Source: a virus | UHGV virus genome: UHGV-1378516 | Strand: one strand, 5' to 3' | Length of the DNA stretch: 64,000 bases | Shown here: one piece after another, positions 3,789 through 7,667 of the stretch | Position numbering within the stretch: position 1 is the stretch's first letter | Layout: every line of letters starts with the position of its first letter | Program-made: the position numbers and the translations under genes | The notes under the pieces: model-generated | What the model was told of the DNA's origin: nothing | The model's database searches: none | The model's input: the letters and a program-made list of their open reading frames with translations, nothing else

Positions 3789-4044
3789 ATTAAATCTTTT
3801 TAGAGAACTTCTAAGAACCTGAGCAACAAGGTTCCACAACAAGCGACTAATAACCTTAGAAGCCCTCTAAAAAGACCTAAATAGGTCTTTGCATAGTCTT
3901 GTTTAATCCGGTGACTAGAACCTTTGGAGAGCTTGATATTATCTCTTCTCCGTGACACCTACTAGGTGCTTTGACAGTGTACGACAATACACGAGGGATA
4001 AACCGACAATGCGAACAAGCATGGACGGAGTAAATCTTATTAGG

Positions 4045-4132: not shown

Positions 4133-4148
4133 CCTAATAAGACTTTGG

Positions 4149-4373: not shown

Positions 4374-4447
4374 TACACCCTACAGGATTCGAACCTGTAA
4401 CTAACGATTTAGAAGACCGTTGCTCTATCCAATTGAACTAAGGGTGC
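4374..4447 (-). tRNA. tRNA-Arg (anticodon TCT)
   Basis: Acceptor GCACCCT/AGGGTGT, D-arm GTTCAATTGGATAGAGC, T-loop TTCGAAT, anticodon loop CTTCTAA. Confidence 0.65.
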
Positions 4448-4696
4448 ATTATCTTTAAAGACTCTCTTAGAAAGCCCTTAAAGATGCCCACCTTATTAAT
4501 CATACCGTGGGCGAGTACGCCAAATTCTTTGATGAGGGATTGGAAGACCTCACTGGTGTTTAGCCTATCAAGCTACTGCCAGAAAAACATTGTCGTTTGC
4601 ATTTATTTTAAATTTGCAAAATAGACGCTACGCAACGAAAACTAAGGTTACTATAAAGTAGTCACATCTCAATGTCAACAACTTTATTGAAATTGG

Positions 4697-4769
4697 TACT
4701 GGTAGGTGGAATCGAACCACCGATGTTCCCTTATCAGGGGAGTGTTATAACCTTCTTAACTATACCAGC
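4697..4769 (-). tRNA. tRNA-Ile (anticodon GAT)
   Basis: Acceptor GCTGGTA/TACCAGT, T-arm GGTGGTTCGATTCCACC, anticodon loop CTGATAA. Confidence 0.65.
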
Positions 4770-4847: not shown

Positions 4848-4854
4848 ATATTGG

Positions 4855-4927
4855 TAGAAGTGGAGGGATTCGAACCCATCGCCTGTCAGATTAAAAGTCT
4901 GCCGCATCACCATTCTGCTACACTTCC
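4855..4927 (-). tRNA. tRNA-Lys (anticodon TTT)
   Basis: Acceptor GGAAGTG/CACTTCT, T-loop TTCGAAT, anticodon loop CTTTTAA. Confidence 0.6.
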
Positions 4928-5126
4928 ATTAAATTATCTTTGTAGATAAGCTACCCAGACTTGCTTAAGGTCTGTAGCGATGTGCCTTTTGGGTTTAAAT
5001 CTAGAATTTACCCATTCACCCTTTGTGGTCGCATACTCACAGGTAAGCTTAATAACTTATCTACAAAGATAATTACCAGACCGTTGTTTATCATCTTAAG
5101 TGCTACCATTACACCAACTCGACATC

Positions 5127-5172
5127 TGCCGAGTGAAGGAATCGAACCTTCGCCTTTTCTTTACCGGAGAAA
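5127..5172 (-). pseudogene. tRNA remnant: 3' half (T-arm + acceptor 3' strand) plus an anticodon-arm-like hairpin (loop CCGGTAA), no matching 5' acceptor strand
   Basis: T-arm GAAGGTTCGATTCCTTC present; no complementary 5' acceptor strand within 100 nt. Confidence 0.3.
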
Positions 5173-5358
5173 TAGATTGTTTAAGTTTTGCTGTAAACGG
5201 TCTTCTGTAAATTTGTTGAGCCAGACCAAGTTTTAAATTTTCAAAATTAAATTGGCTTGAAATTTCATACGTTCTTGCTGTATTTGGTCTTCTGCTCCTT
5301 TAAAGAATACTCGTAAGAACTCTTTAAGGGAGGGGCTAAATAGCCCTCTCAAAATTGG

Positions 5359-5598: not shown

Positions 5599-5672
5599 CG
5601 GTTAGTCAGGGATTCGAACCCTGTGCCATTCGCTTAACAGGCGACCGCACATACCTTATGTGCTTCCTAACC
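5599..5672 (-). tRNA. tRNA-Asn (anticodon GTT)
   Basis: T-arm CAGGGTTCGAATCCCTG, acceptor GGTTAGG/ACTAACC, anticodon loop CTGTTAA. Confidence 0.6.
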
Positions 5673-5759
5673 ATGTTTAGTATTACCAGACCGTATCTTT
5701 CAATTTTTTCCGCTAAAAATTTAATAAATATTGCTGTAAACGGTCTTCTGTAAATTTGG

Positions 5760-5833
5760 AGGCGGGTGCAGGAGTCGAACCTGCCGATACCATGCTAATG
5801 AGACATGTGAGACGCCCTTTCTCTATACCCGCA
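5760..5833 (-). tRNA. tRNA-Met (anticodon CAT), 1-72 mismatch
   Basis: T-arm GCAGGTTCGACTCCTGC, acceptor TGCGGGT/ACCCGCC, anticodon stem CATGT/GCATG loop CTCATTA. Confidence 0.55.
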
Positions 5834-5927
5834 ATTCTTAATGACCAGACCAAATCTCTTCTTTGTCCGATTTACCTTCAGATGAATAAGATTAAGTTTG
5901 CTGTAATTGGTCTTCTGTCAAAACTGG

Positions 5928-6086: not shown

Positions 6087-6251
6087 ATAAACTTTTCAAA
6101 CTCTATGTAACCACTTTAACATTATTTTTTAGTGGTTGTCAAGAACTTTTTTAAAATATTCTTCAGTATCTTAGAAAAGCTCTCATTTCGTTTCTATGTA
6201 GAACATATTAAAGGGTATTAAACACATTGTCAATACCCTTTTTAAAACTTT

Positions 6252-7667
6252 TTACCAGATGTAACGGTCAATCATTACTGCTTTGAGCATTACGCTGATT
6301 GGGTCAAACTTCTCACCACCAAGCAGAGCTTTTAAAGTGGCTGGAGAGAAACCAGATACCATTGCTACACCGTTATCCTTAACGGACACTTCGCAAGTAC
6401 CATTACGGTTTGCTAAGTACCAGAATACCAGTTGTGGCATCTCATATCCAGCTTTTTTGTACTTGCTCTGAATTGCTTCAAAGTTTGTACGACCGTTAGC
6501 TCCATCAACCTGATTGAACTCCATATCAGAGAATATGATAAGCTTACTTGGCATATCTTTCTGAGTCAAGTTGTTTCTCTTACCTATTTCAAGAATGCGG
6601 TCAAAAGCTGCTTGTAAGTTAGTTGAACCATATTCAACATGACGCATTACCTGACGATGACGGTTTCGTAAATCACCACTCAGTTCGATGAAGTGAGGGT
6701 TTGTTGAATAAACCATCAACTCATTCTTAAAGCAACCTGTATTGCGTTCTGCTACATACAAGGCAAGTGATACACCAATATCAAGGGCGGTGATTGAACC
6801 AAGATTCACCCAAGACATTGAGCTTGAAACATCAGTCATACACAAGATGTTTTCACCTTCTGCCATCCAGTTTGGTAGTGCTTTCCACTGCTCATTGGCA
6901 ACATCTGCATTACCATGCTTGATAGACTTAATCACATCGTATGGGTAAACAGCACCAGCATTAATCTTAGCCTCACCCTTTGATAAGGACTCAATGTAAG
7001 CTTTGTAGCGTTCTCCATCTTTACGGTTAAACAGTTTTTGGTAACGTGCAGCAGCAAGTGAAGGAATCTTACTGTAGTCAATCTTACCAAACTCATTAGC
7101 AGAGATTTTTTGCTCAACTGTATCAGATAGTGCAGACAACAGTGTGCGGTACTCTTTCTCACTCAAGTTGGCAAACTTGCAGAAACGTTTTACAAACTGC
7201 TTATGACGTGGTTTGACTCGTGGTAACCACTTAGCTGCCAAACCTGCTGTTGCAGGGTCTAGTAATGCTGCTTCTAAATGTTTGAAGGCATCTGTCTCGA
7301 AACGAGTACCTACGAAGATTTTGAAGTCATCAAAACGGCCAAGTTCTGCAATCTTATCCATAATACGAAGAACCTGCGTAGACTCTAAAACTTTGTCTTC
7401 AATTGCTTGAAGCAAAACAGTTCTGAAGGCTTTACGCTCACCCATACCTTCTCGTACATCTCGCATATGAAGCAAAATACGAACTGCAACATCAACATCC
7501 TCACGCAAAGCTTTGTAGAACAGGTCTGGTAAGATTTCTACGTTGCTACGGCTTGAACCAGCAGCTTTGTAAAAGTCTACAAGAGCAGACATTGATGAAG
7601 TATGGTTTACAGCACCATTTTCAGTTCGACCTGCATGAAGGTGCGCATGTTTAAATAATTCGCTCAT
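6252..7667 (-). CDS. von Willebrand factor A (vWA) domain protein, DUF2828-like
   Basis: 471-aa ORF; MIDAS-type DxSxS motif (MTDVSSSM) followed by a vWA-like C-terminal region. Confidence 0.5.
   Translation of the reverse strand: MSELFKHAHLHAGRTENGAVNHTSSMSALVDFYKAAGSSRSNVEILPDLFYKALREDVDVAVRILLHMRDVREGMGERKAFRTVLLQAIEDKVLESTQVLRIMDKIAELGRFDDFKIFVGTRFETDAFKHLEAALLDPATAGLAAKWLPRVKPRHKQFVKRFCKFANLSEKEYRTLLSALSDTVEQKISANEFGKIDYSKIPSLAAARYQKLFNRKDGERYKAYIESLSKGEAKINAGAVYPYDVIKSIKHGNADVANEQWKALPNWMAEGENILCMTDVSSSMSWVNLGSITALDIGVSLALYVAERNTGCFKNELMVYSTNPHFIELSGDLRNRHRQVMRHVEYGSTNLQAAFDRILEIGKRNNLTQKDMPSKLIIFSDMEFNQVDGANGRTNFEAIQSKYKKAGYEMPQLVFWYLANRNGTCEVSVKDNGVAMVSGFSPATLKALLGGEKFDPISVMLKAVMIDRYIW

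What the first reader, a model, noticed from the sequence alone, without database searches (positions are those of the whole stretch)
4934..5068. Perfect 15-bp inverted repeat (ATCTTTGTAGATAAG / CTTATCTACAAAGAT) enclosing about 100 bp inside the tRNA region
A long-range perfect inverted repeat in a non-coding stretch suggests either a large structured RNA stem or the ends of a tiny mobile or recombinogenic element. It sits directly after tRNA-Lys(TTT).
Basis: seen in the sequence. Interest (0 to 1): 0.45.

Follow-up and report, generated by a model that had tools for sequence, protein, structure and literature searches.

The report
Conserved structured RNA beside phage tRNA-Lys
The inverted repeat is the 24-base-pair closing stem of a conserved, about 145-nucleotide non-coding RNA in the tRNA array of a Felix O1-like phage, just downstream of a Ro60-like gene, so it is a candidate RNA partner of that anti-defence protein rather than a mobile element.

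Summary
The repeat is real and longer than reported: 19 perfect bases, and 24 uninterrupted pairs when read as minus-strand RNA, the tRNA strand. It is the only such repeat in the 64 kb window.

The window is a Felixounavirus. About nine in ten Felix-type genomes carry the element. Diverged homologues sit directly 5' of tRNA-Lys(UUU) in seven clades, down to 52-56% identity of the neighbouring protein.

All versions keep two features:
- a 21-25 bp closing helix whose sequence drifts while pairing is kept (97.9% paired, 10 of 29 pairs with compensatory changes);
- a terminal hairpin with a conserved 9-nt loop, CYUWWGCAA.

There is no conserved ORF, no second copy, no Rfam match and no copy in E. 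coli genomes. Absences are deletions. So it is a structured RNA, not a transposon end.

The array lies downstream of a DUF2828/vWA protein whose predicted fold matches Ro60. Its Bas63 orthologue, gp130, counters the ppl defence. The array also holds four stem-bulge-stem "ACAGCAA" modules, one enclosing a permuted tRNA-like domain.

Best reading: a stable small RNA cut from the polycistronic tRNA transcript, possibly a Y-RNA-like accessory. Its function is inferred, not shown.

The parts
5051..5074 (-). 5' strand of the closing helix (RNA: AAUUAUCUUUGUAGAUAAGUUAUU)
   Evidence: Covariation (alignment columns 5-28).
4932..4955 (-). 3' strand of the closing helix (RNA: GGUAGCUUAUCUACAAAGAUAAUU). 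With the 5' strand it forms 24 bp, including 3 G.U pairs.
   Evidence: 97.4% of cells in this helix are paired, and 8 of its 24 pairs show changes on both sides.
4956..4974 (-). Terminal hairpin CAGAC-CUUAAGCAA-GUCUG, directly abutting the 3' strand of the closing helix. The 9-nt loop (consensus CYUWWGCAA) is conserved across the clades.
   Evidence: 94.9% paired across 7 clades, 5 of 6 pairs with compensatory changes, slid controls 20-42%.
4990..5014 (-). Internal hairpin UGGGUAAAUU-CUA-GAUUUAAACCCA. Its apex sequence UUCUAGA is kept in the Felix and SUSP/Moogle types, while the stem differs.
   Evidence: Predicted only; no formal covariation count was made.
5016..5046 (-). First internal hairpin, UUACC...GGGUGA. 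It contains a partly conserved box, GAGUAUGCG.
   Evidence: Predicted only.
4928..4931 (-). 4-nt linker (UAAU) between the helix and the 5' end of tRNA-Lys(UUU). RNase P cleavage of the tRNA would create the 3' end of the element.
   Evidence: Linker length is 0-4 nt in six clades (about 9 nt in L037). The cleavage itself is inferred.
4852..4927 (-). tRNA-Lys(UUU), the invariant downstream neighbour of the element in all seven clades
5073..5212 (-). Neighbouring module B. It has a stem-bulge-stem closure (UUAC-AGA-AGACCGU-UUACAGCAA ... ACGGUCU-G-GUAA) around a circularly permuted tRNA-like domain: V hairpin, T arm, closed 7-bp acceptor-like hairpin, D arm. Its last helix abuts the closing helix of the inverted-repeat element.
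   Evidence: tRNA model, 22 bits; covarying acceptor-like hairpin. The YrlA anatomy it resembles is described in PMC4201824.
6252..7667 (-). 471-aa DUF2828 + DUF7788/vWA protein with a Ro60-like fold. It lies upstream on the same strand and is the orthologue of Bas63 gp130.
   Evidence: (Foldseek: the 12 best PDB hits are all Ro60/TROVE; E 5.6e-8, TM 0.66).
6113..6233 (-). Two sigma-70-like promoter matches between the Ro60-like gene and tRNA-Pro. These are the probable start of the polycistronic tRNA/ncRNA transcript that contains the element.
   Evidence: These are consensus matches only. No minus-strand terminator was predicted between here and 4928.

Best explanation
The inverted repeat is the closing helix of an independently folding non-coding RNA of about 145 nt (window 5074-4932, minus strand). 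The RNA belongs to the phage's polycistronic tRNA transcript. Shown: the helix and a terminal hairpin are maintained by compensatory evolution in seven clades of Felix O1-like and related phages. The element always sits 0-9 nt 5' of tRNA-Lys(UUU). It is non-coding and single-copy. Inferred: RNase P cleavage at tRNA-Lys sets its 3' end. The 21-25 bp duplex, about two turns of dsRNA and conserved in length, is a likely RNase III entry site that frees the RNA from the upstream module. The released stable RNA, with its conserved 9-nt loop, then acts in trans within the RNA system encoded here. That system comprises a Ro60-like protein (the orthologue of Bas63 gp130, a counter-defence factor), four stem-bulge-stem 'ACAGCAA' modules including a YrlA-like tRNA mimic, and the tRNAs. 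In this reading the element is a Y-RNA-like accessory or substrate of the Ro60-like particle.
For: Structure:
- MFE -49.2 kcal/mol, z -5.5, with 0 of 200 shuffles folding as well.
- On 10 sequences from three clades, 97.9% of cells pair against 31-45% in slid controls; 10 of 29 pairs change on both sides; covariation score 0.348 against 0.08 or less.
- A naive 13-sequence MAFFT/RNAalifold run already gave 8 of 17 pairs with double changes.
- The terminal hairpin across 7 clades is 94.9% paired, with 5 of 6 pairs compensatory.
- The closing helix is 21-25 bp in the eight family members measured; the L037 helix was read by eye.

Strand:
- 28 of 284 cells are G.U, so the paired fraction would drop to about 89% on the + strand (derived).
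- Single-sided changes within the Felix type give G.U pairs (L009, L027).

Conservation:
- 196 phage records hold the Felix-type element, against about 210 records with a Ro-like gene at 95% identity or more.
- Homologues lie next to tRNA-Lys(UUU) in L036/L042, L038, L037, L039 (Yersinia phage P778), L040 and L041.
- ESCO50 kept the element while losing the sequence on both sides.

Context:
- The Ro60-like fold of the upstream protein.
- Bas63 gp130 counters ppl, and its authors suspect Y RNAs among the tRNAs (PMC11482910).
- Phage Ro60 binds phage-encoded Y-like RNAs in Thermus phage phiLo (PMC12135203).
- Y RNAs are defined by a long 5'/3' stem closing a large loop, and occur as several RNAs per locus processed from one precursor (PMC4201824).
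Against: - No expression, processing or binding data exist for this RNA.
- The element lacks the features that mark Ro60 ligands. It has no conserved GNCGAA motif and no bulged helix in the Felix type. It does not match Rfam YrlA or Y_RNA.
- The better candidates for the Ro-like protein's ligand are the neighbouring ACAGCAA stem-bulge-stem modules. A profile of their 5' motif does not detect the 5' strand of the inverted-repeat element.
- One isolate lineage (L015) has lost the element together with tRNA-Lys(UUU) and half of module B, so it is dispensable at least in some hosts.
- Its strict linkage to tRNA-Lys(UUU) rather than to the Ro-like gene could point to a cis role instead.
Confidence: 0.45

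Rival explanations
1. The element is only a processing or insulating device. The long duplex would be an RNase III site, like the stems that flank rRNAs. It would separate the upstream RNAs from the Lys-Met-Ile tRNAs and expose the tRNA-Lys leader. The interior would have no function of its own.
For: - The helix length is held at 21-25 bp while its sequence drifts.
- Other long helices hug tRNAs in the same array: a 13-bp leader-trailer helix around tRNA-Ser(UGA) (I4) and a hairpin of about 15 bp ending at the 5' end of tRNA-Arg(UCU), whose outer sequence resembles the inverted-repeat helix (D14/I3/I5).
- Model R1 also picks up the stems that enclose tRNA-Ser(UGA) in L039-L041.
Against: - The interior is not free to vary. 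The terminal hairpin covaries, and its 9-nt loop sequence is conserved in clades whose helices share almost no sequence.
- A bare processing stem would not need about 100 nt of structured insert, kept at similar size (145-172 nt) in all clades.
Confidence: 0.25
2. The element is a cis-acting leader of tRNA-Lys(UUU). It would control the maturation, timing or amount of this tRNA, which phages are known to supply against tRNA-Lys-cleaving defences.
For: - The element is adjacent to tRNA-Lys(UUU), within 0-9 nt, in all seven clades, although the upstream neighbour (module B or tRNA-Ala) and the tRNA after Lys (Met or Leu) differ.
- From general knowledge, not tested here: PrrC, RloC and PARIS target tRNA-Lys(UUU).
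Against: - ESCO50 retains an intact element although its tRNA-Lys(UUU) is truncated.
- No mechanism is evident.
- A structured leader ending at the RNase P site would be expected to hinder processing rather than help it.
Confidence: 0.15
3. The element is a decayed tRNA-type gene, for example a duplicate of the long-arm tRNA-Ser unit with its leader-trailer helix. It would persist by linkage, without function.
For: - Model R1 hits the helix-enclosed tRNA-Ser(UGA) units of L039-L041 (E 9e-4 to 0.5).
- By eye, the seven pairs GAUAAGU/GCUUAUC near the inner end of the helix resemble the tRNA-Ser acceptor stem GGUAGGU/ACUUACC.
- The terminal hairpin abuts the 3' strand as a T arm would.
Against: - ARAGORN and the Rfam tRNA model find nothing in the element.
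- Global alignment to the tRNA-Ser(UGA) unit scores below the shuffle mean (56.5 against 61.9 +/- 5.4).
- Compensatory changes and a conserved loop over deep divergence show selection, not decay.
Confidence: 0.08
4. The repeat marks the ends of a miniature mobile element, or a DNA-level recombination or protein-binding palindrome.
For: - It is a long, perfect inverted repeat enclosing about 100 bp.
- Presence and absence vary among related genomes.
Against: - There is one copy per genome, at a fixed position.
- No flanking direct repeat is present.
- No copy exists in E. coli genomes.
- The arms change by compensatory substitutions and tolerate G.U pairs, which would be A.C mismatches in a DNA cruciform or on the other strand.
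- The absences are microhomology or T-arm-by-T-arm deletions that take neighbouring genes with them.
Confidence: 0.03

Closest known systems
Bacterial and phage Y RNAs (YrlA/YrlB, Rfam RF02553; Yrl1/Yrl2 of Thermus phage phiLo)
   Same: - It is a non-coding RNA of about 100-150 nt whose 5' and 3' ends form a long helix closing a large, branched loop.
- It is encoded on the same strand next to a Ro60-type protein.
- There are several different RNAs per locus, one of them a tRNA mimic, and they are cut from a common precursor (PMC4201824; PMC12135203).
   Different: - It has no conserved GNCGAA/CGAA motif, no bulge in the Felix-type helix and no T or D arm.
- It has no Rfam hit.
- The protein is the DUF2828 branch, not canonical TROVE.
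- Binding has not been tested.
- The neighbouring ACAGCAA modules fit the Y-RNA definition better than this element does.
Phage T4 stable RNAs, species 1 and 2 (rnaC, rnaD), in the T4 tRNA cluster
   Same: They are small stable RNAs embedded in a phage tRNA gene cluster (annotated in NC_000866). By general knowledge they are co-transcribed with the tRNAs, released by tRNA-processing enzymes, and their function is still unknown.
   Different: There is no sequence or structural likeness. rnaC carries a canonical T arm near its 3' end, and rnaD folds weakly (z -0.8). T4 has no Ro60-like gene beside them.
RNase III processing stems (rRNA operon stems, T7 early-region sites)
   Same: Distant complementary segments form a duplex of at least 20 bp around a functional RNA inside a polycistronic transcript. 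The helix length is held near two turns.
   Different: Cleavage has not been shown. The interior is only about 100 nt, and its function is unknown.
Miniature inverted-repeat transposable elements
   Same: Terminal inverted repeats enclose about 100 bp of non-coding DNA.
   Different: This element is single-copy at a fixed site, has no target duplication, shows RNA-type covariation, and is absent from host genomes.

Membership tests
Y RNA / YrlA-YrlB | Encoded adjacent to a Ro60 (TROVE + vWA) gene | tested here: met
   The 471-aa protein at 6252-7667(-) has a Ro60-like predicted fold. The element lies 1.2 kb downstream on the same strand, within the same tRNA/ncRNA array. The protein is in Pfam DUF2828/DUF7788, not PF05731 TROVE.
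Y RNA / YrlA-YrlB | 5' and 3' ends pair into a long stem that closes a large internal or branched loop; size 80-150 nt | tested here: met
   A 24-bp helix closes 95 nt, for 143 nt in all. The pairing is supported by covariation.
Y RNA / YrlA-YrlB | Conserved Ro60-binding site: a bulged helix with the GNCGAA(N)G / CGAA motif on the 5' strand | tested here: not met
   No such motif is conserved in the family. GCCGAAG occurs only in L024 and L038, in the interior. The Felix-type helix has no bulge.
Y RNA / YrlA-YrlB | Match to the Rfam covariance models (YrlA RF02553, Y_RNA) | tested here: not met
   No hit at E <= 10 in the window element or in the L040 and L037 homologues. As a positive control, the Mycobacterium phage MsGreen module scores 39 bits with YrlA.
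Y RNA / YrlA-YrlB | Physical binding to the Ro60 protein | not testable with these tools
   This needs pull-down, CLIP or EMSA with gp130.
RNase III substrate | Roughly 20 bp or more of near-perfect dsRNA | tested here: met
   24 bp uninterrupted in the window; 21-25 bp with 0-2 interruptions in relatives.
RNase III substrate | Cleavage by RNase III in vivo or in vitro | not testable with these tools
   This needs 5'/3' end mapping in rnc+ and rnc- hosts.
MITE / IS-type mobile element | Multiple dispersed copies | tested here: not met
   There is one copy in the window and in each related locus, and none in 5,426 E. coli genomes.
MITE / IS-type mobile element | Target-site duplication flanking the inverted repeats; empty sites in relatives | tested here: not met
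   The flanks CATTA and ACCAG are not repeats of each other. Genomes without the element carry larger deletions with junctions inside tRNA or tRNA-like sequence.
tRNA / tRNA-like element | Cloverleaf with T loop and D loop, recognised by tRNA models | tested here: not met
   ARAGORN and Rfam tRNA find nothing in 4932-5074. There is no similarity to the tRNA-Ser(UGA) unit.

The most novel reading that the evidence does not exclude
This RNA and the adjacent 'ACAGCAA' stem-bulge-stem modules (one a permuted tRNA mimic) form a previously undescribed set of Y-RNA-like partners for the DUF2828 branch of Ro60-like proteins. That branch is widespread in phages of Enterobacteria, Listeria, Campylobacter, Mycobacterium and others. 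The helix-closed RNA would be a specialised member that loads or regulates the particle through which Felix O1-like phages (gp130 in Bas63) defeat a host defence.
Probability: 0.25. Interest if true: 0.8.

Novelty: new variant of a known kind. Interest (0 to 1): 0.6.

Why it matters
Felix O1-like phages are classical typing and therapy phages, yet this RNA is unannotated. In some genomes it is covered by spurious antisense ORFs, such as bas63_0138 and wV8 gene 48.

A 2024 preprint showed that the neighbouring Ro60-like protein counters a bacterial defence. Its authors could only guess that "some tRNA genes" might be its Y RNAs.

The present analysis gives concrete, covariation-supported RNA candidates with coordinates. 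These are this helix-closed RNA and four ACAGCAA modules. The question of which RNAs the phage Ro60-like protein uses becomes directly testable by CLIP, EMSA and targeted deletions. It also adds an RNA family that is not in Rfam.

Tried and rejected
- **Rfam.** Scans of the window and of two distant homologues found no family for the element.
- **tRNA origin.** ARAGORN and Rfam were negative. Alignment to the tRNA-Ser(UGA) unit scored below the shuffle mean.
- **Diverged fifth ACAGCAA module.** By eye, the 5' strand in L037 (UUUGC-AAA-GAAUCUU-UCAGCAUU) and in L040/L041 (CUGUGCGCAA) looks module-like. A profile of 19 module 5' motifs does not recover any 5' strand of the element at E <= 10. This stays a weak lead only.
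- **Target for the conserved loop.** A search for the complement TTGCTTAAG in the window gave chance-level matches.
- **Coding potential.** The longest open frames differ in strand, frame and sequence between clades.
- **T4 rnaC/rnaD as homologues.** They are unrelated in structure.
- **Sequence search of the Ro-like protein against PDB.** Nothing was found. Only the fold comparison was informative.
- **Canonical Ro motif.** GNCGAAG appears in two sequences only and is not conserved.
- **Module motif antisense to tRNA-Arg(UCU).** The 11-nt complementarity between the module motif AGAAGACCGUU and the anticodon arm of tRNA-Arg(UCU) (I9/I10) is within what chance gives for 11-mers in 2.5 kb. It was not pursued.
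- **PhageMaP supplementary fitness data** for bas63_0137 and bas63_0138 are not held.

Full report
**Observation.** The two 15-mers are in the sequence at 4936-4950 and 5056-5070. The repeat extends to 19 perfect bases (4932-4950 / 5056-5074), or 22 bases with one mismatch. All 26 tRNA genes of the window are on the minus strand. On that strand the mismatch is a U.G wobble, so the RNA helix runs 24 uninterrupted pairs (5074-5051 with 4955-4932). No other perfect inverted repeat of at least 15 nt with a gap of 200 nt or less exists in the 64 kb window, and only 1 of 200 shuffles produced one. In the direction of transcription the element lies upstream of tRNA-Lys(UUU), 4 nt from its 5' end.

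**Identity of the window.** The 511 nt around the element match 252 phage records at 78-99% identity. These are Felix O1, wV8, Bas63 and other Felixounavirus genomes, plus the SUSP and Moogle groups. The element alone is found in 196 records. About 210 records carry the neighbouring protein at 95% identity or more. So roughly nine in ten Felix-type genomes carry the element. The Felix O1 genome paper does not mention it.

**It is a structured RNA.**
- The minus-strand transcript 5080-4928 folds to -49.2 kcal/mol (z = -5.5). The fold has the long closing helix, three or four internal hairpins, and a terminal hairpin that abuts the 3' strand.
- In the SUSP/Moogle-type phages the interior has diverged strongly, but the helix is kept through paired substitutions and a paired one-base-pair deletion.
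- On 10 sequences from three clades, 97.9% of cells pair, against 31-45% when the partners are slid. Ten of 29 pairs change on both sides. The covariation score is 0.348, against 0.08 or less.
- A naive 13-sequence alignment already gave 8 of 17 pairs with double changes.
- Ten per cent of cells are G.U. They would be A.C on the other strand, which would lower pairing there to about 89% (derived).
- Within the Felix type, single-sided changes give G.U pairs (L009, L027).
- No open reading frame is shared between clades.

**Deeper relatives.** I used the neighbouring protein to fetch syntenic contigs at 80, 63 and 52-56% protein identity. In every one a helix-closed element lies directly 5' of tRNA-Lys(UUU): L038, L036/L042, L037, L039 (Yersinia phage P778), L040 and L041.
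- Their helices share little sequence with the window's, but helix length stays at 21-25 bp with 0-2 interruptions.
- All keep a 5-6 bp terminal hairpin with a loop of consensus CYUWWGCAA.
- That hairpin is 94.9% paired across the seven clades, with compensatory changes in 5 of 6 pairs.
- A covariance model built from the three closer clades (R1) finds one copy in the window and one per related locus. With filters off it also recovers the distant ones (E from 3e-4 to 0.35).
- The upstream neighbour differs between clades (module B in Felix-type phages, tRNA-Ala in the distant clades). So does the tRNA after Lys (Met or Leu). The link to tRNA-Lys(UUU) is therefore specific.

**Not a mobile element.** There is one copy per genome at a fixed site, no flanking duplication, and no match in 5,426 complete E. 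coli genomes. The genomes that lack it are deletion variants. In L015 the T arm of the upstream tRNA-like module recombined with the T arm of tRNA-Lys, removing the element with both neighbours. Phage ESCO50 kept the element intact while microhomology deletions removed Ile-Met-Lys on one side and module B to tRNA-Asp on the other.

**Context.** Upstream on the same strand is a 471-aa protein (6252-7667).
- It belongs to Pfam DUF2828 + DUF7788/vWA and to PHROG 850, 'RNA-binding protein'.
- Its AlphaFold model (pLDDT 88) matches Ro60/TROVE structures over its full length. The 12 best PDB hits are all Ro60/TROVE, including Xenopus Ro60, Deinococcus Rsr and the Ro60 of Thermus phage phiLo (E 5.6e-8, TM 0.66).
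- Its Bas63 orthologue is bas63_0130. A 2024 preprint reports that gp130 is Ro60-like by structure and counters the ppl defence. The authors speculate that 'some tRNA genes' may be Y RNAs (PMC11482910).
- Promoter-like sites lie between this gene and tRNA-Pro. No terminator was predicted before the element. It should therefore be part of the polycistronic tRNA transcript.

**Other RNAs in the array.** Four modules share a stem-bulge-stem closure: H1 - AGA - AGACCNN - UNACAGCAA ... NNGGUCU - G - H1'. They lie at 5922-5842, 5755-5683, 5299-5218 and 5212-5073. H1 and H2 covary.
- Module B (5212-5073) encloses a circularly permuted tRNA-like domain: V hairpin, T arm GAAGG-UUCGAUU-CCUUC, a closed 7-bp acceptor-like hairpin that covaries between clades, and D arm GUGU-AAUGGUA-GCAC. 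This is the anatomy described for YrlA (PMC4201824).
- The same ACAGCAA closure appears beside DUF2828 Ro-like genes in an AT-rich phage at 29% protein identity (L032), Listeria phage P100, Campylobacter phage NCTC12673 and Mycobacterium phage MsGreen. In MsGreen one module scores 39 bits with Rfam YrlA.
- These modules, not the inverted-repeat element, best fit the stem-bulge-stem definition of a Ro60 ligand (PMC12135203).

**Mechanism.**
- Shown: a selected RNA fold, its position, and its context.
- Inferred: RNase P cleavage of tRNA-Lys gives the 3' end. The duplex, held at about two turns, is a likely RNase III site that frees the RNA from module B, whose last helix abuts it. The released RNA presents its conserved loop to a partner.
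- I place it, with moderate confidence, as a Y-RNA-like accessory or substrate of the Ro60-like particle.
- Against this: there is no Ro motif, bulge or Rfam match. A profile of the module 5' motif does not detect it. It tracks tRNA-Lys(UUU) rather than the protein gene.
- The main rivals are a pure processing stem and a cis-acting leader of tRNA-Lys(UUU). A decayed tRNA is unlikely.

**Comparison and novelty.** The closest known things are Y RNAs (same shape and neighbourhood, defining motif absent), the T4 stable RNAs in its tRNA cluster (same situation, unrelated structure), and RNase III processing stems. The family is not in Rfam 15, and I found no paper describing it. I rate it a new variant of a known kind: a small structured RNA of a phage tRNA/Ro60-type locus. 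Interest is 0.6, mainly because it and its neighbours make the RNA partners of a phage counter-defence protein directly testable.

Noticed in passing
window 5922-5842, 5755-5683, 5299-5218 and 5212-5073 (all minus strand); also L036-L041, L032 ~5670-5900, L044 ~2611-2900, L045 4454-4722, L047 2858-2990: Four modules share a conserved stem-bulge-stem closure: H1 - AGA - AGACCNN - UNACAGCAA ... NNGGUCU - G - H1'. H1 and H2 covary. The same ACAGCAA closure lies beside DUF2828 Ro60-like genes in Listeria P100, Campylobacter NCTC12673, Mycobacterium MsGreen and an AT-rich phage. These are probably the cognate Y-RNA-like ligands of this protein family. They are not in Rfam.
   Followed up: partly
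window 5212-5073 (minus strand): Module B encloses a circularly permuted tRNA-like domain: V hairpin, T arm, closed 7-bp acceptor-like hairpin, D arm. This is the YrlA anatomy, and the domain is conserved and covarying in all related clades. Some genome records annotate it as a pseudo-tRNA or tRNA-Thr; Rfam tRNA gives 22 bits and Rfam YrlA gives no hit.
   Followed up: partly
window 6252-7667 (minus strand): The 471-aa DUF2828/DUF7788 protein has a predicted fold matching Ro60 over its full length. It has about 2,800 homologues, mostly in phages, and is the orthologue of Bas63 gp130, a reported counter to the ppl defence. In Listeria P100 the homologue lies near an RtcB-type ligase.
   Followed up: yes
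window 4032-4044 / 4133-4145, and 4448-4490: A 13-bp leader-trailer helix extends the acceptor stem of tRNA-Ser(UGA). A hairpin of about 15 bp ends exactly at the 5' end of tRNA-Arg(UCU), and its outer pairs (AUCUUUAA/UUAAAGAU-AAU) resemble the outer part of the inverted-repeat helix (I3, I4, D14, I5). Model R1 also hits the helix-enclosed tRNA-Ser units in L039-L041. Long helices hugging tRNAs seem to be a theme of this array.
   Followed up: partly
L015 8306-8542; L002 (ESCO50) 2460-2720: The tRNA array is remodelled by deletions. In L015 the T arm of module B recombined with the T arm of tRNA-Lys. In ESCO50, microhomology (CATC) deletions occurred on both sides of the element.
   Followed up: yes
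window 6233-6205, 6142-6113 and 4678-4650 (minus strand): A promoter-like repeat (TTGACA - 17/18 - TAATAT/TAAAGT/TATAGT) occurs in three copies: two ahead of tRNA-Pro and one between tRNA-Ile and tRNA-Arg(UCU) (D7).
   Followed up: no
L048 (Bas63) 2809-2919 and 2645-2797; L003 (wV8) 1631-1888: The annotated 'hypothetical protein' CDSs bas63_0138, bas63_0137 and wV8 gene 48 lie antisense over the element and module B. The frames are not conserved between clades, so these are probably mis-annotations.
   Followed up: partly
window 4448-4752 (minus strand): The spacer between tRNA-Ile and tRNA-Arg(UCU) gives weak sub-threshold Rfam matches to tmRNA and permuted tmRNA (29 and 16 bits). L037 11097-11210 gives similar weak hits. 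These were not examined.
   Followed up: no
window 4411-4421 versus 5196-5206 and 5739-5749: The module motif AGAAGACCGUU is perfectly complementary to 11 nt of the anticodon arm of the phage tRNA-Arg(UCU), including the anticodon (I9/I10). Matches of this length are expected by chance in 2.5 kb, so this is probably a coincidence.
   Followed up: no
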